A stretch of 45,731 bases of DNA, the filler included, from Catajapyx aquilonaris (taxonomy: Eukaryota): assembly GCA_000934665.2 (NCBI GenBank). It is 2 parts of 2 records of this genome, joined end to end, with 100 filler letters (N's around TTAATTAATTAA, not from the genome) between each part and the next. Parts side by side here need not be neighbours in the genome. Positions count along the whole stretch, not along the records: positions 22,898 to 45,731 come from JYFJ02005808.1; 1 more part is not named here. One strand, written 5' to 3'. Both the position numbers and the translations under genes were made by a program. Shown here piece by piece: positions 3,336 through 45,465 of the stretch. A model generated the notes under the pieces. It ran no database searches and was not told where the DNA came from. It worked only from the letters and a program-made list of their open reading frames with translations. Position 1 is the first letter of the stretch, and each line of letters opens with the position of its first letter.

Positions 3336-3336
3336 G

Positions 3337-3795
<459 letters not shown>

Positions 3796-7306: not shown

Positions 7307-7308
<2 letters not shown>

Positions 7309-7359
<51 letters not shown>

Positions 7360-7841: not shown

Positions 7842-7900
<59 letters not shown>

Positions 7901-20768: not shown

Positions 20769-20852
20769 CTGGAATGCAAGTAGATATTTGATGTGCAGTC
20801 ATATACACGACATAATTATTGCACATATTCAGAAATTCTTTACACTAGATTA

Positions 20853-20857
<5 letters not shown>

Positions 20858-20904
<47 letters not shown>

Positions 20905-24090: not shown

Positions 24091-25473
24091 TCAGCTTCGT
24101 ATGAAACAAATCACAGACATGTTTTTGTAGAGTAGAATAATTGCATCTCGGTAGCTCTGGATCCTGTATTAATGATAGGGGTACTTTTAAGTTATTGTAA
24201 CAACAGACTGAATCATAAAACATTGTTGGAGTAGCTTACCTGTAGACGTAAAGAAATACGTTGATGACGAAGTAGTAATTAGTGGAGAATGTGAAATATA
24301 TGTAAGGTCTGTCAAATGTGCTTCCTTTGAATGCCAGGTAGATGATGACTGGTGGTGCTGTCGTGCTGAAGTAAGCCAATCCCAGAAGAGTCAGAAGAAC
24401 AGTCATTTTCTTCTCTCTTTCCTTCAGGTCATGCAGTGTGGACTTGCCAATGTCTCTGGAAAGATTGGTACACCAGAGTGATCCTTCACATTACCATAGT
24501 TCCATGACTCACTTGAACTGCTTCAATTGAGACCAGTTCTGACGCAGCTTGATCCAGATCAGAAGGAGACAGACCAGGACAATGACCAGTGGGACAATCC
24601 TGTATAATCCATACATAACGTAGGCTTCTAAGTGATCCACTTCGACAATCATTGAGCATATTCCTTTGGTCCTGCTGTAGCCATAGCCATACTGAAACTG
24701 ATTGTGTCTTGTTAATACCGAGAGTGTATGGGCTATATCTAGTGTATGTCATTTTCTACGAGATTTTGGATGTGTGCTTCGTGGCATGCCGCTTTTAAAC
24801 TTCAATAGGTTTCAATTGTTTACTCACCGCCACATATATTGGCACCACACCTGATACCATCCACACAAACATCGCTGCAGGAACACCACTGTACGACTCA
24901 AAGAGAACGTCGTTGCCTGTAGGCCACCATAGTTGTAACGCCCTTTGCAGAAGGAAACGATAGTATTCAATTTGTTGCTTTTACATCGTAACAGTAATAA
25001 TACCTGCTCATTGTAGCTGCTGCCAAGGAATAAGAAGACGCCAAGGACATGTAGACGAGAAGAAAGCCGGAGAAGTAGCAACATCTGGTGCCCATAACCC
25101 ACTTTCGGCACAGAAACGTCACTCCCAAACCGGAGAGGTTGACGAAACAGTACAGTCCATCAGCCAGACTCAGGCTGAGAAGAAGGACAGTGGTTGGGCT
25201 CTTGAGAGGACTTCTAGGGTCCCTGGTCCTCCACCTGGCGTAGGGAATGGCCACCAGCACCAGCAAGTTGCCAAATCCTCCAACCACACTCAGGAGGAGC
25301 CAATATATGCCTACAATAATGGTGAAATAGTAAGGATGGTCCGGGAAGCAGCATGATGGCACCTCTTGTTGTGTCAGACACACTCGAGATGTCTCCTGGT
25401 CGTCTCTTGCACAGAAAGACGACACATTCAGGCCGATGCTGGAGGAGTTGTTGACCTGTACAGAGCCTCTCAT
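24091..25473 (-). CDS. Class A GPCR, Tre1/moody-like, copy G1; exons 25004-25473, 24828-24942, 24513-24697, 24240-24455, 24091-24163 (352 aa)
   Basis: 7 hydrophobic helices; GN in TM1, LSLAD in TM2, WVMG..C in ECL1/TM3, INVFLY in TM7; all introns GT-AG and in frame; a 2-bp insertion shortens the C-tail. Confidence 0.85.
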
Positions 25474-25865
25474 TGCTAGTGAGTGACTGGTTGTAATGGC
25501 GTAGAAAAGTTTATTGTTTTGAGATAAATATTGTGTTCTTTTTCTCTGATTGATGACTCCCTGTGACAATGGATTCGAGCATTATTTGCCCCAGTGTCGA
25601 TGAACTGTACTATTTGCATGCAGTGTCAAACAGAAAACAATGGGTCAGTCCCCCAACATGAAAACCTTTTCCCCTGTTTGATATGCATTGACAAAGACTG
25701 ACTTATCAAATAAAGCTTCTGAGACAATATTGCGACCTGTTGATTTTATTGATGAAGACGTTGACGACAAATTAGTAGAGGGTTGGATAAGCTTTCACAA
25801 TCATTATTGTTTATTGTTATTGTTACCATTGCTGGCCCACTCGTATTGAGCGAAAATATTAACTA

Positions 25866-26830
25866 CAGGGTGTCGAAAAATATTATTCTAAATCTCTCTT
25901 TTTTCACTTTTCTTATGCCTTGCCATCAGTAGGCTGGTTCCATTTCAATTCAGACAGAGGGTGCCCAGTCATGGTCTTCGATTTTTTTAAAAAATATATG
26001 CGTGAAACCCACATCCAATTGAACTTTTATGGAGCAATTTGTTTTACGAGATTAAATTTAGTTATCGAGATATTAATAGTTTTGTTAAGGGGTACCAAAA
26101 TGACATTCCCGGGAAGGTGCATTTTTTCCATTGCTTTCAATGAGTATATTTCCGGAACCGTTCTGAAAACCAATATGAAATTTTAAACTCATGCTTTTGG
26201 AAGAATGCACTGTTATGTAATGCATACAATTGCCTTATTTAATGGTACAGTCACCTGCAAGCAAATCTCCAACATTGCATATTTTGGTCAAAATGCGCAT
26301 ATTTCGCAATTTATTACGGCGTTATGGTAAACGTGACGGTTGTGCCGATTATATTTTGTGATATACTCGGTGACCCCCTAAATGTCATGCAATAAAACCT
26401 TTGCTAGCTCCGCGTGTAGTTGAGATATGCGAGGTGAAAATATGGCAACAAGCGAAAACACCCATATTTCAAAAATTATTTTCTCAAAAAGCCAAATTTT
26501 TATTTTTTATTTTTTATTTTTTATTTTACACGGACAGACAGGTTATAAAATAAGGTAGTGTCAAAACCCGGTGCATATTTTTTGTAAGTGAGATACACTT
26601 TTTTTCAGATGACAACTTTAGTCATTGTGCTACAATATAGCACACTTCATATAAATATTTTCTCGAAGAAGCCATTTTGAATATTTAATCGTTATTTTTT
26701 GTATAACAAAGTAGCATGAGTTCTATTATAAAATTATATCAAAATTCGGTATGCACAATGCCGTAATTTACTAGTACAGTCATCTTTAAAAAAAATGCCA
26801 AAAGTGCTTGTTTTGCAGGAAATTCACTTA
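25866..26830. mobile_element. Probable decayed non-autonomous DNA transposon sequence
   Basis: Starts TA|CAGGGTGTC like Tc1/mariner ends; AT-rich; absent from other array units; right TIR not found. Confidence 0.35.
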
Positions 26831-26942
26831 GTACGCAATTTATTATGTTGATTTTATTGATGAAAACGTTGATGACAAATTAGTATGCCGAGAAACATGC
26901 TTCACAAAACACCAGTTCACTTCTACGCTATTAGTTTACCAC

Positions 26943-28333
26943 CTACGTATTTCTGATAATCATTGAAGGATTTACACCACATTGTTCTATGTCATTATTC
27001 CGCCGGAGACTGAACTTCGTATGTAACAAGTCGCACGTGTCTCTGTAGAGTAGAATAAAGGCATTCCGGTAGTTCTGGATCCTGAAATAATGACAGGAGT
27101 ACTTTATGTAACGACAGACAGAATCACGCAACATTGTTGGAGAGGATTAATTTATGAATTACCTGTATATGTAAAGAAATACATTGATTACAAAATAGCA
27201 ATGAGTGTAGAAGGTATAATATATGTAAGGCTTGTTAAACGAGCTAGTTTTGTACACTATGTATATGATTGCTGGTACTGTCGTGGCGGAGTAAGCCACT
27301 CCTAGAAGAGTCAGAAGAACAGTCATTCTCTTCTCTCTCTCCTTCAGGTCCTGTATCATGGTCTTACAAACGTCTCTGGAAACATCGGTACATGAGAGCC
27401 ATCACAGGTCATCCTTCACCGTGTCATGACTTGCCTGAACTGCTTCAGTAGAGACCAGTTTTGCCGCAGCTTGATCCAGATCAGAAGGAGGCACACCAGG
27501 GAAGTGATCCATGGAAGGTATACGGATACTCCGAACAGAATGTAGATTAGTCCTACCGGATGATTCTCTCCAATAATCACCGTGCATATTCCTCTGGTCC
27601 TGCTGTAGCCATATCCATACTGAAACTGTTTGTGTCTGGGTAACAATACAAATGCATCCCTTTTAACCTCAATGCGTTTGAATTATTTACTCACCGCTCC
27701 ATGTGTTGGCACAACTGCTGCCAACATCCACACAAAGAGCACTGCAGGAACACCACTGTACGATTCGAAGAAGACCTCGTTAACTGCAGGCCACCATTGT
27801 TGTAACGCCCTTTGCAAATGGAAACTATTCAAATTGCGGCATCTACATTGTAACATCAATAAATACCTGTTGAGTGTAGCGGCTACCAGGGAATTTGAAG
27901 AGGCCAAGACTAAGTAGAGGAGGAGAAAGCCGGAAACGTGGCAATAACCGGTGCAAAAGACCCACTTCCGGTGTAGAAAAGCCACTCCTATGCCGGACAG
28001 GATGATGAAACAGTACAGTCCATCTGCCAAACTCAGGCTGAGAAGGAGCACTGTGGTTGAGCTCTTCAGAGGACTTCGATGGTCCGTTTCCTTCCACCTG
28101 GCGTAGGGCAAGGCCACTAGAGCCATGAGGTTGCCCAATCCTCCAACCACACTCAGGATGAGCCAAAACGTCCCTACTGTGACAGTGAAGTAGTAGGGAT
28201 GGTCCGGGAAGCAACATGATGGCACCTCCTGTTGGGTCAAACACACTAGAGATGTCTCCTGGTCGTCTCTCGTGCAAAAGGAAGTCACATTTAGGTTGAT
28301 GGCGGATGTGTTCACCAGCACTGATCCTACCAT
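26943..28333 (-). CDS. Tre1-like GPCR copy G2; exons 27867-28333, 27695-27809, 27435-27625, 27163-27375, 26943-27081 (374 aa)
   Basis: Paralog of G1 with identical intron positions; intron 3 uses a GC donor (AG|GCAAGT); open throughout. Confidence 0.85.
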
Positions 28334-28550
28334 GGCGAGGGATCAGATGGAATTGTAAGGGAAGGGCCGTTATGTAATGAACACTGTCACTGAGAAGTCT
28401 GGGATTAATCCTAACTGATGACTTGCTGTAACAATGGATGCTAGCATACTTTATCACAGTAACGATGGTATATTTGCATGTAATGTCAAAGAGAAAACAA
28501 TGGGACAACACACGACACGTTGTATTTGTGGTATTTTGCCGGAATGTTGA

Positions 28551-29894
28551 TTAGATTTTGCTTAACTTCCCACGGAGCAGGTCTAGTGTGTCTCTGTAGA
28601 GCAAAATAAATGCATTCCTGTAGCTCTGGATCCTGAAATAATGATAGCATCTTCTGTGACGACGGACAGAATCACAATGTATTGTTGGAGTAAGTTAATT
28701 CTACCTGTAGATGTAAAGAAAAACGTTGATGACGTAGCAATATCCCAAGATGAAGGTATAATACACATATGGTTTGTAAAATATGCTTCCTTTGAACACT
28801 CCGTTTAGGATTACTACTGGTGTTGTTGTGCTGACGAAAACAGCTCCCAGAAGAGTCAGAAGTACGGTCATTCTCTTCTCTCTCTTCTTCAGATCCTGTA
28901 GTGTGGCTTTTCCGATGTCTCTGTAAACATCGGTACAGCCATCACAAGGCACAGCCCAAGCCATCCTTCACCCCACATCACAGTTCCATGACTTACTTGA
29001 ACTCCTTCAGTTGAGACCAGTTCTGGCGCAGTTTGATCCAGACCAGAAGGAGGCAGACCAGGACAGTGATATAGGGAAGACCTGCAGCTATTCCGAACAC
29101 ACCGTACATAACATGCCCATTCCCTTCCATAATCATTGTACACATTCCTTTCCTTCTGCTGTAGCCAGAGCCATAGAAACACTGTATCAGGATTTAAAAG
29201 ATATATCAGATCGCCATCAGCCATATTGTCATGTTCCCACATGTTGACAATGAGTGCTTCTGGGAATCACCGCGAATTCTCACCTCTCCAAATGTTGGCA
29301 CCACTACTGCCAGAATCCACGCAAACAGCACTACAGGAAATGCACTGTACGACTTAAAGAGGACATCATTCCCTGCAGGCCACCATTGTTGTAACGCCCT
29401 TTGTAAGTGGAAACGAGACGTAATATTGTGGCTTATAATAAAAATACGTTGTATTACTAATAATACCTGCTGAGTGTAGCCGCTGCCAAGGAATTGGAAG
29501 AAGCCAAGTATACGCAGAGGGAGAGGAAGCCCGAAACGTAGCAATATCTGGCACCAAAGACCCACTTCCGGAGAAGAAATGTAACTCCCATACCGAATAG
29601 GTTGATGAAACAGCAGAGACTGTCCGCCAGACTCACGTTGAGCAAGAGTACTGTGGTTGGACTCTTCAGAGGACTTCGAGGGTCCGTGGTCCTCCATCTG
29701 GCGTAGGGAATGGCCACCAGGACCATCAGATTGCCTAATCCTCCAACCACACTCAAGAGGAGCCAGTATGTCCCTGCTATCATCGTGAAGTAGTGAGGAT
29801 GGTCCGGGAAGCAGCAGGAAGGAGCATCCTCTTGGGTCAAGCACACTAGAGATGTCTCCTGGTCGTCTCTTGTGCAGAAGGAAGACACGTTCAT
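28551..29894 (-). CDS. Tre1-like GPCR copy G3; exons 29467-29894, 29284-29398, 28997-29181, 28705-28920, 28551-28632 (341 aa from the second Met)
   Basis: Same exon structure; ancestral ATG is ATA at 29933 (alternative in-frame ATGs at 29894 and 30029); CAA>TAA shortens the C-tail. Confidence 0.75.
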
Positions 29895-30225
29895 GCTGAG
29901 TGTGGAGGTGTTGACCTGCACAGATCCTCTTATTGCTAGAGAGAGACTGGATGGAATGGCTGGGAGCAGCTTGTTATGGGATTTTTTTTCTCCAAGTAAT
30001 GAATAAATTGTTTTGACAATGCATGTCATCCTTATTTACCGATCGATGTGATATTTGTGTGTACTGTCAAACAGAAACAATGGGATGACCCCCAATATGT
30101 CCCATGATTGGTGCACTCAAATAAAACTTATGCCAAGGTTAGATAAGACATTCGTAAATAGGAAGAAGCCAGAGCTTGTTATTGCTGACCCACTCAAGTT
30201 GAGCAAATAGATAAAATATAAGCCT

Positions 30226-30378
30226 ACCCTCCCCACGATGTATCTCCACCTTGACGTGGTGGTTGGGCTTGCGTTTTCTCATGATCCCGAAGAGCTATGC
30301 CGCCGGTATATTCGTCTACTGCTGGTAGGGTCCAAGGCGCACAGGTCTTTGGGGTAGGAGACAGACGAGATACCAGTC
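30226..30378 (+). mobile_element. Isolated RTE-type LINE 5'-UTR fragment (structured RNA)
   Basis: CCACCTTGACGTGGTGG..GATCCCGAAGAGCTATG..CTGGTAGGGTCCAAGGC..CAGGTC..CAGAC resembles, from recall, Expander/BovB-like RTE 5' UTRs; several helices can be drawn. Confidence 0.55.
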
Positions 30379-30713
30379 TTTCCTCTCTTCTTTTCTTCGA
30401 GTCTTCTGGTAGCCAGATAGCCACAGTTGCTTGGCTCTTTTTACGCAAACAAACCATAATTTTACACACTTCCATTGTAAGGGAATGAGCTATTGCATTT
30501 ATTAATGCTTGGAATGATCTCTGCATATATCTGAACGCTTTTTCCCCGTGCGAAGAACGGGTATTGCAGCTATAGTAATTAAATAAAAATTAAATAAAAG
30601 ACAGCTAATTTTTGAGAAAGGTAGATTGTGACTTCAATAAACTCCTTCCAAATACACTTTTAAAATAGCTTACCAGCATATTGGGATCCTCATTGAAATA
30701 TTTAAAGACCATG

Positions 30714-31611
30714 TCACAGGTCTACCATATCATTATTCCGCCGGAATATTGGTCGGCTGAGCATCACATGGCACAGGTCACATGTGTCTCTGTAGAGTAG
30801 AATAAATGCATCTCGGTAGCTTGGGATCCTGCAATAATGATAAAATCATCTTATGTGACATTGTTGGAGTAGCTTAATTATTACCTGTATACGTAAAGAA
30901 GAACGTTGATGACGTAGTAATAAGGCAAGATGAAGGTATAATACACGTAAGATTTATTAAAAATATTTCCTTTGAACACTCCGCCTATGATGATTGCTGG
31001 TGCTGTCGTGCTGACGAAAGCAGCTCCCAGAAGAGTCAGAAGGACGGTCATTCTCCTCTCTCTTTCCTTCAGGTCATGCAGTGTGGCCTTGCCAATGTCT
31101 CTGGAAACAGTGGCACATACGATTCATCATTAACCCCATCGCTACCGGTGTGACGGAACCCGAAGGGGTTAACCACATCAAAGTTCCATGACTCACTTGA
31201 ACTGCTTCAGTTGAGACCAGTTCTGTCGCAGCTTGATCCAGATGAGAAGGAGGCAGACCAGGACAGTGATATAGGAAAGACCTGCAGCTATTCCGAACAG
31301 ACAGTACATAACTGGCTGGTTCCCTTCGATAATCATTGAGCACATTCCTCTCCTTCTGCTGTAGCCAGAGCCATAGTGACACTGAATCAGGACAAAATAA
31401 TTATATCAGCTAGTCATTAGCAATATCAGCTAATTCTCACCTCCCCAAATGTTGGTACCACTGCTGCCAACACCCACGCTACCACGACTGCAGGAACGCC
31501 ACTGTACGACTTAAAGGGGACGCGGTTACCTGCAGGCCACCAGTGCTGTAACGCCCTTTGTAACCGGAAACGAGACTATTCATATTGTGGCATCTATATA
31601 CGTACAGTGCA

Positions 31612-31684
<73 letters not shown>

Positions 31685-32151
31685 CTGCTGAGTGTAGCTG
31701 CTGCCAGGGAATTGGAAGAAGCCAAGTATAAGTAGATGGTGAAGAAGCCCAGAACGTGGCAATATCCGGTACCCATGAACCACTTCCGGAGGAGAAAGGT
31801 CACTCCCAAACCTGACAGGTTGATGAAACAATATAGTCCATCAGCCAGACTCAGGCTGAGAAGAAGGACAGTGGTTGAACTCTTCAGGGGACTTCGAGGA
31901 TCAGTGATCTTCCACCTGGCGTAGGGCAATGCCACCAGAGCCATCAGATTCCCAAATCCTCCGACCACACTCAGGAGGAGCCAGTATGTCCCTGCTATCA
32001 CTGTGAAGTATTCAGGGTAGTCCGGGAAGCAACAGGAAGGAGCATCCTCTTGGGTCAGACACACTCGCGATGTCTCGTGGTCGTCTCTTGTGCAGAAGGA
32101 AGACACATTCATGCTGAGTGTGGAGGTGTTGACCTGCACAGAGCCTCTCAT
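30714..32151 (-). CDS. Tre1-like GPCR copy G4; exons 31685-32151, 31441-31555, 31197-31381, 30885-31100, 30714-30828 (365 aa)
   Basis: Open through all five exons; (TAA)n expansion in intron 1 (31612-31682). Confidence 0.87.
31134..31168. mobile_element. Internally deleted TTAA-specific (piggyBac-like) MITE remnant in G4 intron 3
   Basis: TTAA|CCCCATCG...CGAAGGGG|TTAA at the same intron position as the 35715-36016 element. Confidence 0.6.
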
Positions 32152-32739
32152 TGCTATAGAGAGAGACTGGATGGAATGGCTGGGAGCAGCTTGTCCATGG
32201 GTTGCACATGGGGCGATTTTTCCTGAGTAATGAATAAATATTGCTGTGACAATGGATGCGATCGTTATTTCTTTTACCAAAGTATCGAAGTGACATTTGC
32301 GTGTACTGTCAAACAGAAAACAATGAGACAATCCCCAATGTGACACATAATTGGTGCACTCAAATAAGACTGGTACTAAGGTTATATCGCAATAAGATAA
32401 AGTACAAGGTTTATTTAAGGCCAGTGTACGGCCCCATGATGTGTCAGATTAATATTACTATATATAACTTACTATATAGACTCATCAGTAGTAAGCTGTT
32501 TGTCACGGCTTTGATTGTTTGTTATTAATATTCCTTCCAGTCAACAGCACGCAGCCACAATTCAGGGAGCCTGTATCGTACACTATCAACTCTTGTCACA
32601 CGCGACACCAGTGTTGTATTGAGAGCACGTCAGATCAACAAAACAACGACTCTTTGTAGCTCCATAAGGACCATATCACAATTCCTTCACAATAGGTACT
32701 TCACCATTAGCATTGGTTTAGTATGGCAATTAAGTTTCT

Positions 32740-34156
32740 TCAACTTCTCGGTTGTATTTTATTAGTCCGTCGGAATGTTGATTGGATTTTGCTTAACTTC
32801 CTATGTATCAGGTCTCGTGTGTCTCTGTAGAGCAAAATAAATGCATCCCGGTAGTTTGGTATCCTGAAATAATGATAGAAACATCTGTAACGACAGAGAA
32901 AATCACGCAGCATTGTTGCAGTAACGTATTAAATAATTACCTGTAGACATACAGAAATACGTTGATGACAAAGTGGTAATGCAAGAAGAAGGCATAATAC
33001 ACGTAAGGTTTGAGAAGAAAGCCTCTTTTGAATACGCCGTTTATGATGAATATTGGCGCTGCTGTGCTGGAAGAAACCAGTCCCAGAAGAGTCAGAAGGA
33101 CGGTCATTCTCTTCTCTCTTTCCTTCAGGTCCTGCAGTGTGACCTTGCCAATATCTCTGGAAAGAACGATATATAATATTATAGTGATCCTTCATCTCAC
33201 CACAGTACCATGATTCACTTGAACTGCTTTAGTTGAGACCAGTTCTGTCGCAGTTTGATCCAGACCAGAAGGAGGCAGATCAGGACAATGACCCAAGGTA
33301 GACCTGTAGCTATTCCGAACAGAACGTACGTAACTTCCTCATTCTCTTCGACAATCATTGTGCATATTCCTTTCCTTCTGCTGTAGCCAGAGCCATAGTG
33401 ATACTGTATCAGAATTATATAAAACATCAGATCGTCATGAGCACTACTGTCATCTTCACACATGTTGATAGTGAATGCTTCTATAGCAATCACCGCGAAT
33501 TCTCACCTCCCCAAATGATGGCACCACTACTGCCAACATCCACGCAAACACCGCTGCAGGAACTGCACTGTACGACTTAAAGAGGACATCATTCCCTGCA
33601 GGCCACCACTGTTGTAACGCCCTTTGTAAATGGAAACTAGACTTCACATTGTGGCTTATAATAAAAATACGTTGTATTACTAATAATACCTGCTGAGTGT
33701 AGCGGCTGCCAAGGAATTGGAAGAGGCCAAGGATAAACAGAGGGAGAGGAAGCTCGAAACGTGGCAACATCTGGCACCCAAGACCCACCTCCGGAGAAGA
33801 AATGTAACTCCCAAACCGGATAGGCTGATGAAACAGTACAGTCCATCGGCCAGACTCACGCTGAGCAAGAGTACTGTGGTTGGGCTCTTCAGAGGACTTC
33901 GAGGGTCAGTGGTCCTCCACCTGGCGTAAGGAATGGCCACCAGAGCCATCAGGTTGCCAAATCCTCCAACAACACTCAGGAGGATCCAGTATGTCGCTGC
34001 TATCACTCTGAAGTATTCAGGATAGTCCGGGAAGCAGCACGAGGGAGGATCCTCTTGGGTCAAGCACACTCGAGATGTCTCGTGGTCGTCTCTCGTGCAG
34101 AAGGAAGACACATTCATGCTGAGTGTGGAGGTATTGACCAGCACTGAACCTCTCAT
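32740..34156 (-). CDS. Tre1-like GPCR copy G5; exons 33690-34156, 33507-33621, 33219-33403, 32941-33156, 32740-32863 (368 aa)
   Basis: Open through all five exons, canonical splice sites. Confidence 0.87.
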
Positions 34157-34780
34157 TGCTAGAGAGAGACTAGATGGAAAGGCTGGGAGCTGCTTGTTAT
34201 GGGATGCACATGAGGGAGGGGGGGGAGGGTTCTAAGTAATGAATAAATTGTTTTGACAATGCATGCCATCCTTAGTTACCGAACGATGTAATATTTGCGT
34301 GTAGTGTCAGACAGAAACAAAGGGCCAATCCCCAATATGTCCCATGATTGTTGCACTAAAATAAAACTTCTGCGAAGGTTAGATAAGACATTCGTAAATA
34401 GGAAGAAGCCAGACCTTGCTATTGCTAACCCACTCAAATTGAGCAAAAAGTGAACCAGACATGGCCTTAGTACCTTATTATACTAATGAGGCATTCCGCG
34501 TCAACTAGGACCACTTTTCCGACAAATATTTCCCGATTTCGATCAAATTTCACAGATTTGTAGTAGTTGTCGTTGTAGGTAAGGGACCGAGATTTCGTCT
34601 CTCTGTGACACGTGGCTGCGAAACTACAGGGTGTGTAATTCAGATTTGTCACTCATTTGACGCTGTCAGGGCTTGTAATGGAGGCCCCTAACCTCTGAAC
34701 CCCTAAAGTGAATCCAAATCTGATATGTGATTTAGGAAGCTCTTTTAAAGGCCTTTAATAATATCGCATTGAAAGCATGA

Positions 34781-34882
34781 CCCCTCCTGTTGGGTCAGAC
34801 ACCCTAGAGATGTCTCATCCTCGTCTCTAGCACAGAAGGAGGACACGTTCAGGTTGACCTCCCTATCATGGCAAGAGACTGG
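34781..34882 (-). pseudogene. N-terminal remnant of a GPCR copy
   Basis: Encodes NLNVSSFCARDEDETSLGCLTQQEG only; the rest of the gene is absent. Confidence 0.75.
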
Positions 34883-35065
34883 AGAGAAAAATTGTTGTGC
34901 TATTTACACTCCGAGATTATTCGTAGGTGACGGCAATAGAGCAGTGAATTTATGTGCCCTCCTGAATGACATGTCAATGGGACACGTCCACCATGCGATG
35001 CTAGAACGTCACTAAAAATAGGACACAGACAGGGTTATAACGGACGTAATAGTCAGTCATTTTAT

Positions 35066-35625
35066 TGTAACATCTCATTGTCGCTCACTTATTACGACGA
35101 CAAAGGGCAACCCCTCATAACCTCCTCGTTAGGGTGTGTGTCGTGCCTCAACAATTGACTCATTTTATGTAATTGTTTTATTTTGCAAAATTTTGTATTC
35201 AACATCACTCCCAACCCTTCCGACCCCCCGTCATGCGACCCTACCCCAGGGGGAAACCCCGAAATACACCACCTCCTTTGCATCCACCCTCCCTCCACGT
35301 CACTCCCACACCCTTCTCAACGTTCCACCCTCCCTTCGTCATCTTTCCAGATCCTTCCAAACCGTCAATCCGCCAGTAAACCCAAATGTAGCCAATCACA
35401 GGCACCCAGGTTGGCCAGGTATTAGTATAAATACAAGGTCGCTGTTGGCCGTTCTGGACTTCTGGAGTCCAAGCTCTTGACTTGTTCAGTTCTTCCTTCT
35501 TCGGGTCGGCTCTCACCACAGTGGTCAGAGTGAAACCGAACTACTGCGTTGTTACTTACTTCCCACTCTCCTTAAAGGACTAATCGGCTGGCCACAGGCG
35601 TAGCCTCCTCAACCTTCACCACTAC
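35066..35625 (+). mobile_element. Possible partial LTR truncating GPCR G6
   Basis: Begins TGTAACA; CCAAT (GCCAATCA, 35391) followed by TATAAATA (~35426); C-rich; abuts G6 exon 4 exactly where homology ends. Confidence 0.4.
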
Positions 35626-36919
35626 CGGTCATTCTCTTCTCTCGTTCCTTCAGGTGCTGTAGCGTGGCCTTGCCAATATCTCTGGAAACATTGGTACATG
35701 GAAATAGTCATTAACCCCCTTCGCTGCCAGCGAAAAAGGACGGGACGAAAAAGCCTAGATTTTCGCGTGCACTAGCTTACTCTGAAGATAAGGACAGATA
35801 TTTTACAAACAATATCAGCTATACTTACACGTTCATTAAACCACTATGAGTTTGGACAATTTTGTATATGCAAAATTCTTCAAAACGCATTCGTAGTGAT
35901 TTCCATGAACAGGTGAATACGTATAACTGATATTATTTGTAAAATATTTTGTCCGTATACTCAGGATATGCGCCAGAGAAAATTAGACATTTTTGGCCCA
36001 GCTGGTAATGAGGGGGTTAACCACATCAAAGTTCCATGACTCACTTGAACTCCTTCAGTTGAGACCAGTTCTGGCGCAACTTGATCCAGATCAGAAGGAG
36101 GCAGACCAGGGCAGTGATGTAGGGAAGACTTGCAGCTATTCCGTATATAACGTACGTATTTTGGTCATTCATTGTGCACATTCCTCTCCTTCTGCTATAG
36201 CCAGATCCAAAGTGACACTGTATCAGGACAAAATAATTATATCAGCTCGTCAGCAGCAATATCAGAGTCTAATTCTCACCGCCCCAAATGTCGGTACCAC
36301 TGCTGCCAACACCCACGCTACCACGACTGCAGGAACGCCACTGTACGACTTAAAGAGGACGTTGTTGCATGCAGGCCACCAGTGCTGTAACGCCCTTTGT
36401 AAACGGAAACGAGACTATTCATATTGTGGCTTCTACAGTGCAATAATTGAAATAATACCTGCTGAGTGTAGCTGCTGCCAGGGAATTGGAAGAGGCCAAG
36501 TATAAGTAGATTATGAAGAAGCCGGAAATGGGACAATATCAGGTACCCAAGACCCACTTCCGGCGGATAAACGTCACTCCCAAACCTGACAGGTTGATGA
36601 AACAGTACAGTCCATCAGCCAGACTCAGGCTCAGAAGAAGGACCGTGGTTGGACTCTTGAGGGGACTTCGAGGGTCCTTTGTCTTCCACCTGGCATAGGG
36701 CAATGCCACCAGAACCATCAGGTTGCCAAATCCTCCGACCACACTTAGAAGAATCCAGTATGTCCCTGCTATCACTGTGAAGTATTGAGGATAGTCCGGG
36801 AAACAACAGGAAGGAGCATCCTCTTGGGTCAGACACACTCCAGATGTCTCCTGGTCGTCTCTTGTGCAGAAGGAGGACAAGTTCACTGTGGCGGTGTTGA
36901 CCTGCACAGAGCCTCTCAT
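35626..36919 (-). pseudogene. Tre1-like GPCR pseudogene G6
   Basis: In-frame TGA at 36539-36541 (WVLGT*); 12-nt deletion in exon 3; truncated within exon 4 before TM6; exon 5 missing. Confidence 0.9.
35715..36016. mobile_element. TTAA-specific (piggyBac-like) MITE in G6 intron 3
   Basis: TTAA|CCCCCTTCGCTGCCAGC ... GCTGGTAATGAGGGGG|TTAA; the site is empty in G7. Confidence 0.8.
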
Positions 36920-37269
36920 TGCTAGAGTAAGACTGGATGTCTGGATGGAAATGACTGGGAGCAGCTTGTTATGTGATGCATATGGGGGAATTTTTCCTCA
37001 GTAAGGAATAAAAATATTTCTGTGACAACGGATGCGATCATTATTTACCAAAGTATCGATGTGATATGTGTAGGCTACTGTCAAACAGAAAACAATGAAA
37101 CAATCCCCAATGTGTCACCTGATTAGTGCACTAAAATAATGTGAGTGTCAATTATTGTTGTGTCATAATTTAATTCCGAATAATACATTTTGGGTGGTTG
37201 CGAAATTTGTCTTGTTCAACATATCGGTATGATGATGCCATGTATCTCAGAGATTGCATCATCTTTTGG

Positions 37270-37448
37270 GGCGGGGAAAACCCCTGCCTTGTCGGAAGAC
37301 ACCCTCCCCAACAATCCCTTTCCCTACCCTATATCCCGAAAGTCCTTGCACGGAGATTGAAGAAAAATCGGTAAAAGTATCTCTAAATGATGGTAATCCA
37401 CTCCTCTTTAAACCCTAATCGGGTTATCACGGGGTAATAGAAAAAAAT
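37270..37448 (+). mobile_element. Decayed SINE 3' portion related to family 1
   Basis: CCCTACCC..GTCCTTGCAC..GATGGT..CACGGGGTA plus A-rich tail; interrupts the conserved upstream region of G6. Confidence 0.55.
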
Positions 37449-37784
37449 TAAGACATTCGTAATGAGTTAGAAGCAAGAGGTAGTCATTGCTGACCCATTC
37501 AAGTTCAGCAAAACGATAAAGTACATGGTTTATTTAAAATTATTATCACTCTCTCTTGTTTTCCTCTTTATTCCATGATTATTAAGCCCAATGTATTGTT
37601 CATCATCCAAACAGCACATTAATGCCGTCTAATGTCTCACAGTCAAGGAGCTGAAGTAGAACAAAATATTCAGGCTGAAGCCTAATACCCATTTTTATTG
37701 ACTAACAAACATTATTTGCAATTACAATTACAATGACGTACGTTAGTTCACAATACGTACAGGCACTTCACCACAACCAACTCT

Positions 37785-39114
37785 TCAGGATGGTAATTCA
37801 TTTCTTGAAGATCTTTGCGGTATTTTATCACTCCGCAAGAATGTTGATTGCAATTTGCTTAACCCCTCATGTAGCAGGACTAGTGTGTCTCTGTAGAGTA
37901 GAATAAATGCATCCCGGTAGCTCGGGATCCTGAAATAACGATAAAATCATCTTATGTGACGACAAAGCATTGTTGGAGTAGCTTAATTATTACCTGTATA
38001 CGTAAAGAAAAACGTTGATGACGTAGTAAAAAGGCAAGATGAAGGTATAATACACGTAAGATTTGCTAGAAATGCTTCCTTTGAACGCCGCGAATATGAT
38101 GATTACTGGTGTTGTTGTGCTGACGAAAGCAGCTCCCAGAAGAGTCAGGAGGACGGTCATTCTCTTCTCTCGTTCCTTCAGGTGCTGTAGCGTGGCCTTG
38201 CCAATGTCTCTGGAAACATCGGTACATGCGAATCCTCACTAACCACATCAAACTTCCATGACTCACTTGTACTGCTTCAGTTGAGACCAGTTCTGGCGCA
38301 GTTTGATCCAGACCAGAAGGAGGCAGACCAGGACAGTGATATAGGGAAGACCTGCAGCTATTCCGTATGCAACGTCCATAACTTGCTGATTCCCTTCGAT
38401 AATCATTGTGCACATTCCTCTCCTTCTGCTATAGCCAGATCCATAGTGACACTGTGTCAGGACAAAATAATTATATCGGCTAGTCATCAGCAATATCAGC
38501 TAATTCTCACCGCTCCAAATGTTGGCACCACTGCTGCCAACACCCACACAATCACCGCTGCAGGAACACCACTGTACGACTTAAAGAGGACGCGGTTACC
38601 TGCAGGCCACCAGTGCTGTAACGCCCTTTGTAAACGGAAACGAGACTATTCATATTGTGGCATCTACAGTGCAATAGCAATAATACCTGCTCATTGTAGC
38701 TGCTGCCAGGGAATTGGAAGAGGCCAAGTATGAGTAGAGGGAGATGAAGCTTGTAATGTGGCAATATCCAGTACCCAAGATATTCTTCCGGCTGAGAAAC
38801 GTCACTCCCAAACCGGTGAGGTTGATGAAACAGTACAGTCCATCAGCCAGACTCAGGCTGAGAAGAAGGACCGTGGTTGGACTCTTGAGGGGACTTCGAG
38901 GATCAGTGATCTTCCACCTGGCGTAGGGCAAGGCCACCAGCACCATCAGGTTGCCGAATCCTCCAACCACACTCAGGAGGATCCAGTATGTCCCTGCTAT
39001 CACTGTGAAGTATTCAGGATAGTCCGGGAAGCAGCAGGAAGGAGCACCCTCTTGGGTCAAGCACACTAGAGATGTCTCCTGGTCGTCTCTTGTGCAGAAG
39101 GAAGACACGTTCAT
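37785..39114 (-). CDS. Tre1-like GPCR copy G7; exons 38687-39114, 38511-38625, 38267-38451, 37994-38209, 37785-37929 (362 aa from the second Met)
   Basis: Open in all exons; ancestral ATG is ATA at 39153 (in-frame ATGs at 39114 and 39240); ECL1 Trp replaced (RKNILG). Confidence 0.8.
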
Positions 39115-39728
39115 GCTGAGTGTGGAGGTGTTGACCTGCACATATCCTCTTATTGCTACAGAGACACTGGGTGGAATGGCTGGGAGCAGCTTGTTATGGC
39201 ATCCACCTGTGGGGATTTTTCCTGAGTAATGAATAAACATTTCTGTGAAAATGGATGCGATTATTAATTACCAAAGTATCGATGCGATATTTTGTGCGTA
39301 GGCTACTGTCAAACAGAAAACAATGAGACAATCCCCATTGTGTTGCATGATTAGTGTACTAAAATTTGTCCCAAGGTTAATAATTAAGCCATTCGTAAAG
39401 AGTTAGAAGCCAGAGCTAGTCATTGCTGACCCATTCAAGTTCAGCAAAAAGATAAAGTAGGCTACATGGTTGATTCTCACTGTCTCTTCTTTTCCTCTTT
39501 ATTCCATGATAAGCCCAATTTATTGTCCATCGTCCAAACTCACATTCTCACTAATGTTGTCTATTGTCTCACATCAAGGAGCTGAAGTAGAACAAAATAT
39601 TCAGGCTGAAGCATAATACCCTTTATTATTTAATAACAAACATTATTTACAATTACAATTACAATGACGTACATTAGTTCACAATACGTACAGGCACTTC
39701 ACCACAACCAACACTTCAGGATGGCAAT

Positions 39729-41111
39729 TCAATTACTTGAAGATCTCGGTTGTATTTTATTACTCAGCCGGAATGTTGATTGGAATTTGCTTAACCTCCC
39801 ATGTATCAGGTCTCGTGTGTCTCTGTAGAATAAAATAAATGCATCCCGGTAGCTCGGGATCCTGTAATAATGATAGAAACATCTGTAACGACAGACTGAA
39901 TCACTAATCACTGTTGGAGTAACGTAATTAATAATTACCTGTAGACATAAAGAAATACGTTGATTAGAAAGTGGTAATGCAAGAAGAGCGTATAATACAC
40001 GTAAGGTTTGGTAAGAACGCTTCCTTTGAATGCCAGGTAGATGATGACTACTGGTGCTGCTGTGCTGGAATAAGCCAGTGCCAGAAGAGTCAGAAGGATG
40101 GTCATTTTCCTTTCTCTTTCCTTCAGGTCCTGCAGTGTGCCCTTGGCAATATATCTGGAAACATCGGTACATGAGATTCATCCTTCACCTTACCATAGTC
40201 ACACGATTTACTTGAACTCCTTCAGTTGAGACCAGTTCTGTCGCAGTTTGATCCAGATCAGAAGGAGGCAGAACAGGACAATGACCCAGGGTAAACTTGT
40301 AGCTATCCCGAACAAAAAGTACATAACTCGCTGCTCCCCTTCGATAGTCAGTGTGCAGGTTCCTTTCCTTCTGCTGTAGCCAGAGCCATAGCGAATCTGT
40401 ATCGAGAGAAAAATATCGGATCGGAATCATGACAATGAGTGCTTCTGGAAATCACCGCGAATTCTCACCTCCCCAAATGTTGGCACCACTGCTGCTAACA
40501 TCCACGCAAACACCGCTGCAGGGACACCACTGTACGACTTAAAGAGGACGTCGTTGCATGCAGGCCACCATAGTTGTAACGCCCTTTGCAAATGGAAACG
40601 AGACTATTCATATTGTGGCATCTACAGTGCAATAGCAATAATACCTGCTCATTGTAGCTGCTGCCAGGGAATTGGAAGAGGCCAAGTATAAGTGTAGGAA
40701 AAAGTAGCCGGTAACGTGGCAATATATGGTACCAAAGACCCATTTCTGTAGGAGGTAAGTCACTCCCAAACCGGACATGTTGATGAAGCAGAAGAGACAA
40801 TCAGCCAGACTCACGCTGATGAGAAGGACTGTAGTTGGGCTCTTCAGAGGACTTCGAGGGTCTGTGGTCTTCAATCTGCCATAGGGTATGGCCACAAGAG
40901 CCATCAGGTTGCCAAATCCTCCTACCACAGTCAGAAGGAAACAGTACGTTGCTGCGATGATGTTGAAGTAATGAGGAAATTCCGGGAAGCAGCACGATGG
41001 AGCATCCTCTTGGGTCAGACACACTCGAGATGTCTCCTGGTCGTCTCTTGTGCAGAAAGAAGACATGTTGAACTCGGCGATAGAAGTGTTGACCACCTCT
41101 GAACCAGCCAT
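39729..41111 (-). CDS. Tre1-like GPCR copy G8; exons 40645-41111, 40469-40583, 40212-40396, 39939-40154, 39729-39861 (371 aa)
   Basis: Open through all five exons, canonical splice sites. Confidence 0.87.
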
Positions 41112-42422
41112 TGTCGTCTGATTACGATGAAGTAAAGGCTAGATGTGACTTGATGCGGAGGAATGTGAATAGTAATAATATCAGACAGACACTGCCCGTT
41201 AAGTATATCAGAAAACAATGGGACAAGCCCCATCACACTCTGACATGAACCAAACAGACTTCCGACAAATGCGAAGGTTATCAAGTCATGCGATGAAACA
41301 ATAACTTTAAACATGAATATTTTCACTCTTCTACAAGTAAACAGGATAAACACTGCAAAAAAAATCTCCTTTCCCACCAATATCGCCGTCCTAGTCGACA
41401 GTGAGAAAAACGGGACAACAACGCATGGCTGATCCAAAAAATTAAAGGAATGTAATTAAAAAATTGAAGTTTTATTGGCACTTCCCTGTGTAGTGTAGCG
41501 CGACTGACAGTATTTCCCGTCAATTGTCACTCTAAATAATTATTAAGCTCACGCGATGACTTATTGTGTCATTGTATGCGAGTCCTGATGACACGTGATT
41601 ACATGTTTACAAGTTGGAAAAACAATGGAAAAGGTCACGATACGCATTTTAAAATATGCAATAAAAATAGCACAAATAGCAGCGACACCAATTGTAAAAA
41701 ATAAGTCTTCATTGGTTCTGCTGTAGCCACATTACTGGAACTAATGGTGTCTGGATAACAAAATCCCACCAAAAACATTTCTGTAAAAAAGGCCAAGTTC
41801 TCCTGACTGCTTGGCCGTCAAAAGTGGTGAGATCTGAAATACGGCCAACTCGGGTGGTATTTCCGATAAGACTAAACCACCCGGGGGAGTTCACAAACCG
41901 ACATTACCAACGACATTGCTCTGCCAACAGTTTGAAAAGTGTCATATGTCGTAATGTGACAGTAACATACTGTATGTCAGTGTACGATCACATGATGTAA
42001 TATCAGATTAATGCCAACTCTTGTACATTAGACCAGTCAGTAGTAAGCTGTTTGTTACAGCAATCATTTGGACACCTTTGACAATAATAATCAGACTCTT
42101 TCTGTCAACCGCAGGGAGTCGCAACGGGAACGGCTGATGGGCACTTTTGTCACACGCGACACCAGATGAGTCCATCTCTGTTCAACAAAGCACTTCCTGT
42201 ACGCTGTAGCTCCTTATCATGTAGGAAGGACTTCAATCATTCCGGTCTTCTTGACAATGTTTAAGTTATGAAATGAAGCCGCTGAGCCCTGTAGATGCAA
42301 AATGAAGACGTTGATGATAATGTAGTGTAGGGTAGATAATCAAGGAGCTGAAGTTGACCAACGTACATTACTTCACAATACCTGCCGGTCCTGCACCACA
42401 ACCACCTCTTCAGGATGCCAAT

Positions 42423-43845
42423 TCAATTACTTGAAGATCTCGGTTGTATTTTATTATTCCGCCGGAATGTTGATTGGACATTGCTTAACTTTTCATGTAG
42501 CAGGTCGAGTATGTCTCTGTAGAGTAGAATAAATGCATTCCGGTAGCTCGGGATCCTGAAATAATGACAGGAGTATTTTCAGCTACCACAGACAGAACGA
42601 CACAACATTGTTGGAGCAACGTAATGAATAATTACCTGTACACATAAAGAAATACGTTGATGACAAAGTTGTAATGCAAGAAGAAGGTATAATACACGTA
42701 AGGTTTGGCAAAAACGCTTCCTTTGAATACGCAGTTTATGATGACTACTGGTGCTGCTGTGCCGGAATAAGCCAGTCTCAGAAGAGTCAGAAGGACGGTC
42801 ATTCTCTTCTCTCTTTCCTTCAGGTCATACAGTGTGACCTTGCCGATGTCTCTGGAAAGAACGGTATATAAGAGTGGTCCTTCACCTCACCATAGTCCCA
42901 TGACTCACTTGAACTGCTTCAGTTGAGACCAGTTTTGGCGCAGTTTGATCCAGATCAGAAGGAGGCAGACCAGGACAGTGAACCATGGAAGACTCGCTGC
43001 TATTCCGAATAGAACATACTGGTAGTACGTAGCTAGTTGATTCCCTTCGATAATCATCGTACAGATTCCTTTCCTTCTGCTGTAGCCATCAGAGCCATAG
43101 CGAAACTGTGTCGAGAAAGATATTAGACTATCACCAGCATTATGTAGTCACTTCGACACTTGTTGGCAGTTAATGCTTCTAGGAAACACTGCGAATTCTC
43201 ACCTTCCCAAATGTTGGCACCACTGCTGCCAGCATCCACACAAACACTGCTGCCGGAACACCACTGCATGACTCAAAGAGGACGTTGTTGCATGCAGGCC
43301 ACCATTGTTGTAACGCCCTTTGCAGACGGAAACGAGCATATTCAATTTGTTACTTCTACACTGTAACAGCAATAATACCTGCTGAGTGTAGCTGCTGCCA
43401 GGGAATTGGAAGAAGCCAACAATAAATATATGAAAAGGAAGCCCGAAATGTGGCAATATCTGGTACCAAGGACCCACTTCCGGAAGAGGAAAGTCACTCC
43501 CAATCCGGACAAGTTGATGAAACAGAGCAGTCCATCCGCCAGACTCAGGCTGAGAAGAAGGACCGTGGTTGGACTCTTGAGGGGACTTCGAGGGTCCTTT
43601 GTCTTCCACCTGGCGTAGGGCAATGCGACCAGAGCCATCAGGTTCCCAAATCCTCCAACCACACTCAGAAGAAGCCAGTATGTCCCCACTATCACTGTGA
43701 AGTATTGAGGATGGTCCGGGAAGCAGCAGGAAGGAGCATCCTCTTGGGTCAGACACACCAGAGATGTCTCCTGGTCGTCTCTTGTGCAGAAGGAAGACAT
43801 ATTCAGGTCGATGAATGATGAGTTGACCCGCACTGATCCTACCAT
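42423..43845 (-). CDS. Tre1-like GPCR copy G9; exons 43379-43845, 43203-43317, 42909-43105, 42636-42851, 42423-42555 (375 aa)
   Basis: Open through all five exons; exon 3 is 12 nt longer (in-frame ECL2 insertions). Confidence 0.87.
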
Positions 43846-44109
43846 GGCAAGCGATTAGACGGAATGGCCATAGAAAGGCCTGTTACGCGATGAACATCCT
43901 GTGATTATTCCTAAGGACCTAAGTATCGATGGGGTAATTGCATGTACTGTCAAACAGAAAACAATAGAAAAACCCCCGACCGTGTCTCGCGATTGTCGCA
44001 CGAAGAAAATTACCAGGGTCGGATGAGAGTCGTAAATAGCAAGATATCATAGCATATACGATATTGCTGACCGACTCAAAAATAGCAAATATTAAAGTTG
44101 CGGGGGGCT

Positions 44110-44255
44110 GGGTTGATGAAACAGCAGAGACTGTCCGCCAGAATCACATTAAGCAAGAGTACTGTGGTTGGGCTCTTCAGGGGACTTCGAGGGTCCGAGG
44201 TCCTCCACCTGGAACAGGGAATGGCCACCAGCACGACCTGCGCTGAACCTCTCAT
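44110..44255 (-). pseudogene. Deleted GPCR exon-1 fragment, G3-like
   Basis: MRGSAQV fused directly to VLVAIPCSRWRTSDPRSPLKSPTTVLLLNVILADSLCCFIN, then homology stops; retains its own upstream module at ~44398. Confidence 0.8.
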
Positions 44256-44547
44256 TGCTGGAGAGAGACTGGATGAAATGGCTATAGGAGCAGCTTGTTA
44301 TGGGATGAACATGCTGGATAAATATCGAGTAATGAATTGCTGTAACAATTGATTCGAATATTATTTACCGAAGTAGTGATGGAATATTTGTATGCACTGT
44401 CACGTAGAAAACAATGGGACAACCCCCTATGACCTTCCCGTTATTATTTATTGAATCACATACTAACCCAGGAACTGGCACATTCCAAAGTACCATTTCG
44501 CTGCACATTATGTTGTAAGTGTATGGAGACTTTGAATCACTTGAAGT

Positions 44548-45465
44548 TCACGGTACTATTTCATCATTCCCCTGGAATGTTGCTTTGATTTTCTGCAGAT
44601 TCGCATGAAACAGGTCACACATGTCTCTGTAGAGTAGAATAATTGCATCCCGGTAGCTTGGGATCCTGCAAAATGACAGGGGTACTTTTTGTAACGACAG
44701 ACAGAATCACAAAATATTGTTGAATTAGCTTACCTGTAGACGTAAAGAAATACGTTGATGACATAGTAGTACTGGGTCCAGAAAGTGAAATATACGTATG
44801 GTTTGGCAAACGTGTTTACTTTGAATGCAAGGTTGAGGATGACTGGGGGTGCTGCTGAGCTGGAATAAGCCAGTCCCAGAAGAGTCAGAAGGACGGTCAT
44901 TCTCTTCTCTCTTTCCTTCAGGTCATGCAGTGTGGACTGGCCAATGTCCCTGGAAACATCGGTACATGAGATTCATCTTCGCATCACGATAGTTCCATCT
45001 TCCATGACTCACTTGAATTGCTTCAGTTGAGACCAGTTCTGGCGCAGCTTGATCCAGATCAGAAGGAGGCAGACCAGGACAGTTACCAATGGCACAATTC
45101 TGTATAATCCGTACAGAACGTATGGTTCTGCCTGCTTCCCTTCGACAATGATCGAGCACATCCCTTTGGTCCTGCTGTAGCCATAGCCATACTGAAACTG
45201 TTTGTGTATTGATAATACGTATCGGCTATATCCATGTGATTTTTTACGAGTTTTTCGTGGGATGTAGTGGGTCTGACAGTGAGTGAGGATTATTATTGGT
45301 CTGGCTATCCCCTCGGTTTTAACCTCAGTAGGTTTCGATTATTTACTCACCGTCGCATATATTGGCACCACACCTGATACCATCCACACGAACACAGTTG
45401 CAGGAACACCACTGCAAGACTTAAAGAGAACGTCGTTACCTGCGGGCCACCATTGTTGTAACGCC
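44548..45465 (-). CDS. Tre1-like GPCR copy G10, 5'-partial (exon 1 outside the window); exons 45351-45465, 45013-45197, 44734-44949, 44548-44665
   Basis: Exons 2-5 open with canonical sites; closest to G1 (WMVSGVVPIY, YGLYRIVPLV). Confidence 0.8.

What the first reader, a model, noticed from the sequence alone, without database searches (positions are those of the whole stretch)
24240..45197. Hypervariable ligand-pocket helices on a near-invariant cytoplasmic face
TM3 differs in every copy: FLLVYMSL, FLLLYLVL, FLSLCVYL, FFTIYLYL, FLSLCLSL, FISLYSYL, YFFLHLYL, FLFIYLLL. So do ECL2/upper TM5 (with in-frame indels in G2, G6, G9) and upper TM7: STNYYF, YTHCYF, ILGYCY, ILPYYY, FLHYHF, FLHYNF, WTQYYY. 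In contrast, DPRSPLKS(P/S)TTVLL, WIKLRQNWS.LK.F and EREK.MTVLLTLL barely change. This is the pattern expected for diverse ligands signalling through a common G protein.
Basis: partly seen in the sequence, partly recalled or inferred. Interest (0 to 1): 0.7.

Follow-up and report, generated by a model that had tools for sequence, protein, structure and literature searches.

The report
Tandem Tre1-like receptors diversifying ligand pockets
Ten neighbouring copies of an unnamed arthropod receptor gene, part of a family of at least 56, differ most at the positions predicted to bind a ligand and least where a G protein is predicted to dock, the usual signature of a receptor repertoire that likely detects many different molecules, though no ligand, tissue or partner is known.

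Summary
Observation confirmed; interpretation partly supported. The window holds ten five-exon class A GPCR genes (8 complete, 1 pseudogene, 1 cut by the contig end) related to arthropod Tre1 and human GPR84. At least 56 distinct intact relatives exist in this arthropod genome. Positions equivalent to GPR84 ligand contacts evolve at dN/dS 0.8-1.4, about twice other upper-helix sites (permutation p 0.002-0.005), but as a class not above 1. Site models find weak positive selection (ω about 1.4-2.7 at 4-8% of sites: 3.32, 3.36, 2.61, 6.51, distal ECL2). Gene conversion is heavy and inflates the test, yet the real statistic beat 21 of 21 recombining null simulations. Allele-like pairs keep their pockets (pN/pS 0.23) while young duplicates change them (0.76), favouring divergence after duplication over permanent relaxation. 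Corrections: ICL2 and mid-ICL3 vary at average rates, an extracellular four-cysteine cap is as conserved as the inner motifs, and several fast sites lie outside the pocket. G-protein sharing and ligands are untested. The pattern is textbook; the scan noted this family before on other contigs.

The parts
24091..25473 (-). G1, complete five-exon GPCR gene (352 aa)
   Evidence: gene model, GT-AG introns of 57-130 nt
26943..28333 (-). G2, complete (374 aa); +2 codons in distal ECL2, -1 codon in TM6, GC donor at intron 3
28551..29933 (-). G3, open frame (354 codons); ATA at the usual start, in-frame ATG 13 codons downstream; mosaic (TM2-TM4 part closest to G5, flanks closest to G7)
30714..32151 (-). 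G4, complete (365 aa); TAT repeat expansion inside intron 1
32740..34156 (-). G5, complete (368 aa); mosaic (exon 4 closest to G9)
34772..34864 (-). isolated N-terminal fragment of a further copy
35625..36919 (-). G6, pseudogene: TGA before C3.25, about 300-nt insertion in intron 3, exon 4 cut off after 18 codons
37785..39153 (-). G7, open frame (375 codons); ATA at the usual start, in-frame ATG downstream
39729..41111 (-). G8, complete (371 aa); shares an 85-nt identical tract over the end of exon 1 and intron 1 with G7
42423..43845 (-). G9, complete (375 aa), reference for numbering; +4 codons in exon 3
44110..44255 (-). internally deleted exon-1 fragment of a further copy
44548..45465 (-). 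G10, exons 2-5 open; exon 1 absent before the contig end
43705..43791 (-). (in G9) conserved extracellular four-cysteine cap, residues 19-47, dN/dS 0.19-0.30
43555..43596 (-). (in G9) constant ICL1/TM2 motif, dN/dS 0.05-0.20
43417..43440 (-). (in G9) variable TM3 turn 3.30-3.37; fastest sites 3.32 and 3.36
43031..43048 (-). (in G9) distal ECL2, residues 214-219, fastest segment of the protein
42911..42952 (-). (in G9) constant cytoplasmic end of TM5 (5.62 onward), dN/dS 0.11-0.15
42779..42817 (-). (in G9) constant cytoplasmic start of TM6 (6.28-6.40), dN/dS 0.14-0.28
42665..42682 (-). (in G9) variable TM7 turn 7.41-7.46

Best explanation
This is a birth-and-death tandem family of Tre1/GPR84-related class A GPCRs in an arthropod whose young duplicates change their predicted ligand-pocket residues and then likely hold the new pocket under purifying selection, while the predicted G-protein cleft stays constrained, so the family likely acts as a repertoire of receptors for related small, probably lipid-like molecules feeding one signalling pathway. 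Shown: gene structure, family size, constraint on the TM5/TM6/ICL1 motifs, faster change at pocket-equivalent positions, weak positive selection, mosaic genes from conversion or unequal crossing-over. Inferred: pocket assignment (generic numbering from GPR84, no full-length model of a family member), allelic status of cross-contig pairs, a shared G protein, lipid-like ligands (from kinship only), and whether the role is sensory, immune or endocrine.
For: Pfam 7tm_1 above cut-off; best solved relative GPR84 by sequence (E 9e-4) and by fold of the nearest full-length homologue (rank 1); named homologues are arthropod Tre1-like proteins. 66 of 68 assembled genes are open, with constant exon lengths. 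Motif dN/dS 0.05-0.28 with relative dS 0.73-1.44. GPR84 ligand-contact positions (list from PMC10241960): dN/dS 1.40/1.26/0.81 in 8/19/56 genes against 0.52/0.50/0.46 for other upper-helix sites and 0.36/0.30/0.25 for lower helices; permutation p 0.0015 and 0.0046. M8 vs M8a survives four segment trees and a double-mutation term (LRT 14.4), and beats 21 of 21 recombining nulls in 19 genes (27.1 vs max 14.3) and 9 of 9 in 8 genes (8.4 vs max 1.3). Pocket share of amino-acid differences: 9 of 97 in 7 allele-like pairs, 49 of 244 in 6 young duplicate pairs (Fisher p 0.017; label permutation 24 of 1716). I/L/E/R/M/L at 5.61, 5.65, 6.30, 6.32, 6.33, 6.36, the Gi contacts of GPR84, are conserved.
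Against: Pocket classes are never significantly above 1. With 12 window trees the LRT falls to 8.2, and with one tree a null replicate reached 21.5 against the real 22.8. The broader 30-position pocket list is not enriched in the 19-gene clade (p 0.11). Helical phase of variability points to the pocket for TM3 (both sets) and for TM6/TM7 (family set) but away for TM4 and TM5. The allele/duplicate contrast weakens to p 0.06 if three unassigned pairs are counted as alleles, two allele-like pairs do have pocket changes, and random upper-half site sets match it in 4.8% of draws. D3.49, Y3.51, Y5.58, W6.48 and P7.50 are all replaced and 3.53/3.54 vary, so canonical coupling is not assured.
Confidence: 0.6

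Rival explanations
1. Relaxed constraint and drift: the copies are redundant, the pocket no longer matters much, and only folding and trafficking residues are conserved; apparent positive selection comes from gene conversion.
For: Pocket-class dN/dS is statistically indistinguishable from 1 in 8 and 19 genes. PHI p 0.001 and segment trees reject each other. 5 of 21 null simulations with recombination passed the nominal 3.84 threshold. Pseudogenes and fragments are common.
Against: Real LRT exceeds every null replicate. Allele-like pairs show pocket pN/pS 0.23, the same as the rest of the protein, which a permanently free pocket would not give. 66 of 68 full exon sets are open and overall dN/dS is 0.37-0.47.
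Confidence: 0.2
2. Immune or host-conflict receptor under an ongoing arms race (balancing or recurrent selection), like hemocyte-expressed pattern receptors.
For: GPR84 is an immune-cell receptor (PMC10241960 abstract listing) and Tre1 acts in Drosophila immune-cell migration (PMC8177520 passage). Mosaic genes reshuffle pocket halves.
Against: ω at selected sites is only about 1.4-2.7; 5 of 7 allele-like pairs have no pocket difference, unlike balanced polymorphism.
Confidence: 0.12
3. Atypical receptors that bind or scavenge ligands, or signal through arrestin or another partner; the constant inner motifs bind that partner, not a G protein.
For: S/N-R-A/T replaces DRY, NVxxY replaces NPxxY, L replaces Y5.58, T/A replaces W6.48, polar residues at 3.53/3.54 in the window clade. 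The best-conserved inner motif is ICL1, which does not touch Gi in GPR84 (PMC10241960 section 12).
Against: R3.50 (55 of 56), E6.30 (55 of 56), N7.49 (56 of 56), Y7.53 (55 of 56) and the hydrophobic 5.61/5.65/6.33/6.36 set are kept; GPR84 itself signals with GRY, Y6.48 and G5.50.
Confidence: 0.08
4. Gene conversion homogenises the cytoplasmic motifs, so their constancy is not selection.
For: Conversion tracts exist; one (G1-G7, 25114-25186) lies just after the ICL1 motif.
Against: Synonymous rate in the three motifs is 0.73-1.44 times the gene average, never significantly lower.
Confidence: 0.02

Closest known systems
Arthropod Tre1 / Moody / CG4313 receptors (e.g. Tachypleus and Limulus 'trapped in endoderm-1-like', P0031, P0077)
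   Same: Best named sequence relatives over the full length (87-113 bits against the family profile); alignable TM2, TM3, ECL2 G...C, P5.50, P6.50 and helix 8.
   Different: The genome has its own Tre1 at 63% identity to P0031 on another contig; this family is a separate offshoot at about 30-40%, with a longer ICL1, a four-cysteine cap, replaced microswitches and at least 56 members rather than a few.
Human GPR84 (PDB 8G05, 8J18; PMC10241960)
   Same: Top solved match by sequence and by fold of homologue P0003; conserved equivalents of its Gi-contact positions on TM5/TM6.
   Different: Weak similarity (E 9e-4; about 20% identity for the proxy); its ligand residues (R172, N3.36, Y6.48, W7.43) are not kept; single gene versus a repertoire.
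Unnamed full-length relatives P0003, P0006, P0022, P0030, P0033, P0053, P0028 (metagenome and assembly sources)
   Same: Share the extended ICL1, N-terminal cysteines and loss of P7.50; P0003 scores highest (132 bits).
   Different: Two conserved N-terminal cysteines rather than four; no annotation, taxon or function; their joint clade with this family is not resolved in the tree.
GPCR chemoreceptor repertoires (vertebrate ORs, TAARs, vomeronasal receptors; nematode serpentine receptors)
   Same: Tandem birth-and-death family with pseudogenes (PMC11526382 passages); variable pocket on a constant inner face is their usual pattern (recalled).
   Different: No sequence membership; ORs are absent from protostomes per PMC11526382; sensory expression not shown here; the genome also has large IR and GR families.

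Membership tests
Class A (rhodopsin-like) GPCR | Pfam 7tm_1 above gathering score | tested here: met
   exon 1 of G9 33.3 and G1 32.3 bits vs 30.5; exons 3 and 4 alone gave no hit
Class A (rhodopsin-like) GPCR | Seven-helix fold | tested here: inconclusive
   exon 1 model gives TM1-3 (pLDDT 81); homologue P0003 gives 7 helices (pLDDT 85); no full-length family member was folded
Class A (rhodopsin-like) GPCR | x.50 anchors N1.50, D2.50, R3.50, W4.50, P5.50, P6.50 and C3.25-ECL2 cysteine pair | tested here: met
   D2.50 56/56, R3.50 55/56, P5.50 46/56, P6.50 54/56, C3.25 and ECL2 Cys 56/56
Class A (rhodopsin-like) GPCR | Canonical DRY, CWxP, NPxxY, Y5.58 switches | tested here: not met
   S-R-A/T, T-T/A-x-P, N-V-x-x-Y, L5.58; common but not obligatory in class A
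Tre1/Moody/GPR84 group | Best reciprocal similarity to Tre1/GPR84 | tested here: met
   a Tre1 query returns family members among its top genome hits
Tre1/Moody/GPR84 group | Orthology to Tre1 itself | tested here: not met
   a separate 63%-identical Tre1 exists on C2794
Tre1/Moody/GPR84 group | Monophyly with Tre1/Moody against other class A outgroups | not tested
   tree had no outgroup
Chemoreceptor-type GPCR repertoire | Large tandem family with gains and losses | tested here: met
   152 exon-1 matches; 66 of 68 assembled genes open, plus pseudogenes and fragments
Chemoreceptor-type GPCR repertoire | Diversified ligand pocket with sites under positive selection | tested here: met
   weak but above recombining nulls; 55 distinct pocket signatures in 56 genes
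Chemoreceptor-type GPCR repertoire | Expression in sensory neurons | not testable with these tools
   no RNA holder listed
Chemoreceptor-type GPCR repertoire | External ligands and a shared G protein | not testable with these tools
   needs assays

The most novel reading that the evidence does not exclude
An arthropod lineage has built a GPCR chemoreceptor (or microbe-metabolite sensing) repertoire of 60-100 genes out of the Tre1/GPR84 lipid-receptor lineage, with a fixed cysteine lid, a rewired activation switch and pockets diversified by duplication, positive selection and shuffling of TM3 and TM6/7 halves between neighbours: a vertebrate-style metabotropic repertoire in a phylum thought to sense chemicals mainly through IR, GR and OR ion channels.
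Probability: 0.3. Interest if true: 0.75.

Novelty: new member of a known kind. Interest (0 to 1): 0.42.

Why it matters
The pattern itself is ordinary for receptor families. What could matter is the host: arthropod chemoreception is attributed mostly to ion channels, and orphan GPCRs are only candidates (PMC7510291 passages; PMC11526382). A large Tre1-derived family with demonstrable pocket divergence between sister duplicates gives a direct, testable candidate for metabotropic sensing, and ready-made sister pairs differing at 5-14 pocket positions for mapping specificity in a receptor that lacks several standard activation residues.

Tried and rejected
RNA evidence: no RNA holder listed, so splice sites rest on GT-AG and constant exon lengths across 68 genes. 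Word-index protein search with exon 1 found nothing; the profile of seven relatives found only 5 unnamed proteins; the neighbouring SET protein gave no useful taxon; the Atlas gave generic 7tm_1 clusters. No full-length family member was folded and the fold tool returns no coordinates, so pocket versus lipid facing rests on generic numbering. The 30-position class A pocket list is recalled (Surgand et al.); a search for it found no paper. Literature searches for a described expansion of this group found none: (open-licence library only; supplements not read). Homogenisation by conversion as the cause of motif constancy: rejected. 'Extracellular variable, intracellular constant' as a general rule: rejected. 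GPCRs replacing missing IR/GR families: rejected, both are abundant. Dropped before counts: 56 of 124 exon-1 hits with incomplete exon sets or divergent genes, 2 genes with stops, 2 doubtful models, 7 near-duplicates and 1 outlier. No null simulation was run for the 56-gene set or the 12-window fit. No complex prediction was attempted.
Full report
Anatomy. Bases 22898-45731 are one whole contig (C3475) of a 286-Mb genome. On its minus strand lie ten head-to-tail copies of a five-exon gene with introns of 56-153 nt at fixed phases. G1, G2, G4, G5, G8 and G9 are complete; G3 and G7 are open but carry ATA at the usual start with an in-frame ATG 13 codons later; G6 has a stop before C3.25 and is broken in exon 4; G10 lacks exon 1 at the contig end; two further fragments lie at about 34800 and 44200. 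The eight complete copies are 75-88% identical in DNA and 61-82% in protein. No RNA was available; the model is supported by constant exon lengths and GT/GC-AG ends in 68 genes.

Identity. Exon 1 passes Pfam 7tm_1. The best solved relative is GPR84 (E 9e-4). Among 60 hits in the representative library only one fragment is close (58%); the rest are 24-55% identical, and the named ones are ostracod and horseshoe-crab proteins, the latter called Tre1-like. The nearest full-length homologue, P0003, folds as seven helices and ranks GPR84 first, narrowly ahead of opioid receptors. The genome is an arthropod's (66 cuticle-protein matches), has its own Tre1 at 63% identity and large IR and GR families (153 and 107 matches, lower bounds). 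Exon 1 has 152 matches in the genome (not copy numbers, haplotype duplicates included). From 40 fetched stretches plus the window I assembled 68 genes from 124 exon-1 hits, 66 open, and kept 56 after removing doubtful, near-duplicate and outlying models.

Numbering. Anchors in G9 are N68 (1.50), D104 (2.50), C131 (3.25), R156 (3.50), W183 (4.50), P234 (5.50), P294 (6.50), V326 (7.50); they align with the canonical residues of Tre1-like proteins and the exon 1 model places TM1-3 at 47-81, 92-121, 128-154. Upper TM4 is two residues shorter than in Tre1, so its numbers are uncertain; TM7 was counted back from N7.49. Ligand and Gi contact lists come from PMC10241960 (passages; sections 11 and 12). 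A second, broader pocket list is recalled.

Observation. Confirmed.

Are the constant motifs selected? Yes. With free dN/dS and dS per class, the three motifs have dN/dS 0.05-0.28 and relative dS 0.73-1.44 in all three gene sets. They map to ICL1/TM2, TM5 from 5.62, and TM6 6.28-6.40; the last two hold most GPR84 Gi contacts, and 5.61, 5.65, 6.30, 6.32, 6.33, 6.36 are conserved.

Do the variable residues face the pocket? Mostly, by numbering. In TM3 the fast sites are 3.32 and 3.36 while 3.30, 3.34 and 3.37 are slower. GPR84 ligand-contact positions have dN/dS 1.40, 1.26 and 0.81 (8, 19, 56 genes) against about 0.5 for other upper-helix sites (permutation p 0.0015 and 0.0046). The broader list is enriched in 56 genes (p 0.0013) but not in 19 (p 0.11). 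The fastest segment is distal ECL2 (214-219). Fast sites outside the lists include 5.47, 5.48, 6.56, 7.32, 4.46, 1.53, 6.42 and N-terminal 29 and 47. The TM7 hexamer is variable in the window (0.85) but only 0.42-0.45 in larger sets.

Positive selection? My own M7/M8/M8a/M1a/M2a code (F3x4, branch lengths scaled from M0 or IQ-TREE; empirical, not Bayesian, site posteriors) gives M8 vs M8a LRT 8.7 for the window (ω 2.35, 7% of sites), 23.1 for a 19-gene clade, 19.6 with four segment trees, 14.4 with a double-mutation term and 16.9 for 56 genes (ω 1.41). Recombination is strong: PHI p 0.001, segment trees reject one another, nearest neighbours switch along genes, and 3 of 28 pairs have tracts significant after correction. 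I simulated no-selection data on 12 discordant window trees, a null more recombined than the data. It inflates the test (5 of 21 above 3.84) but never reached the real four-segment value (max 14.3 vs 27.1), nor for the eight window genes (0 of 9). Against this: on one tree a null replicate reached 21.5 vs 22.8, and fitting 12 trees to the real data leaves 8.2. Verdict: weak, probably real.

Relaxed or adaptive? Seven cross-contig pairs above 95% identity; for six the contigs also align over flanking DNA at 93-97%, so they are likely alleles. Their pocket pN/pS is 0.23, like the rest of the protein, whereas six youngest same-contig duplicates have 0.76 (0.98 at GPR84 contacts) with lower helices at 0.25-0.29 in both. 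At residue level 9 of 97 versus 49 of 244 differences fall in the pocket (p 0.017; pair permutation 24 of 1716; random site sets 4.8%; p 0.06 with three unassigned pairs counted as alleles). The pair classes were chosen after seeing the data and one gene of a pair recurs in both sets. This favours pockets that shift after duplication and are then kept, and argues against both permanent relaxation and balanced polymorphism.

Mechanism. Most likely each copy binds a different, related small ligand under a shared cysteine lid and signals through a shared G protein docking on TM5/TM6. Gene structure and evolutionary rates are shown; ligands, partner and tissue are inferred. Replacement of D3.49, Y3.51, Y5.58, W6.48 and P7.50 keeps an atypical-receptor reading open.

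Comparison and novelty. Birth-and-death chemoreceptor families are well known (PMC11526382 passages); protostomes mostly use ion channels, with GPCR examples in nematodes, gastropods and ticks and orphan candidates in lobster neurons (PMC7510291 passages; PMC8177520 passages). PMC8540695 (abstract) treats Tre1, Moody and CG4313 without mention of such an expansion. Six searches found no description of this family. Earlier notes of this scan describe the same family on four other contigs; they are not independent support. New here are the recombination-controlled test, the normal dS of the motifs and the allele-versus-duplicate contrast. Verdict: real, ordinary in kind, undescribed as a family; interest 0.42.

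Noticed in passing
window 43705-43791 (G9) and all copies: Four-cysteine N-terminal cap with a predicted helix (24-33); all four Cys and two Asp are at least 93% conserved in 56 genes, while ECL2 has only one constant Cys, so the four likely pair among themselves. G3, G4, G6, G7 gain an extra Cys at the start of ECL2.
   Followed up: partly
window 43317, 40583 and equivalents: Intron 1 ends in AAG in all window copies but in CAG or TAG in many relatives on other contigs, which supports the unusual acceptor.
   Followed up: yes
G000:C2357:15814-17236 vs window 37884-39314: A 94.5%-identical sister of G7 sits inside an array of a different subfamily on another contig: transposed duplicate or inter-array conversion.
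   Followed up: partly
G000:C2794:22832-31631: The genome's true Tre1 (63% to Tachypleus Tre1-like) with further Tre1-like paralogues beside it.
   Followed up: no
G000:C98:105000-130000, C548, C2994, C55, C3851, C384: More divergent tandem relatives (31-53% identity in exon 1), some with an extra intron in exon 1; not modelled.
   Followed up: no
G000 whole genome: Very large IR (948 first-look candidates) and GR (714) families; only 150 and 111 were scored.
   Followed up: no
window 35080-35625 and 35700-36000: Two unidentified insertions disrupt G6; no protein match was sought.
   Followed up: partly
window 8410-10386 (+), 20398-20826 (-), 15867-18570 (+): [quoted passage not shown]
   Followed up: partly
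window 3129-3795, 7307-7359, 7843-7900, 20853-20904, 31611-31683: Many (TAA)n microsatellites that create spurious poly-Tyr/Leu/Ile ORFs.
   Followed up: yes
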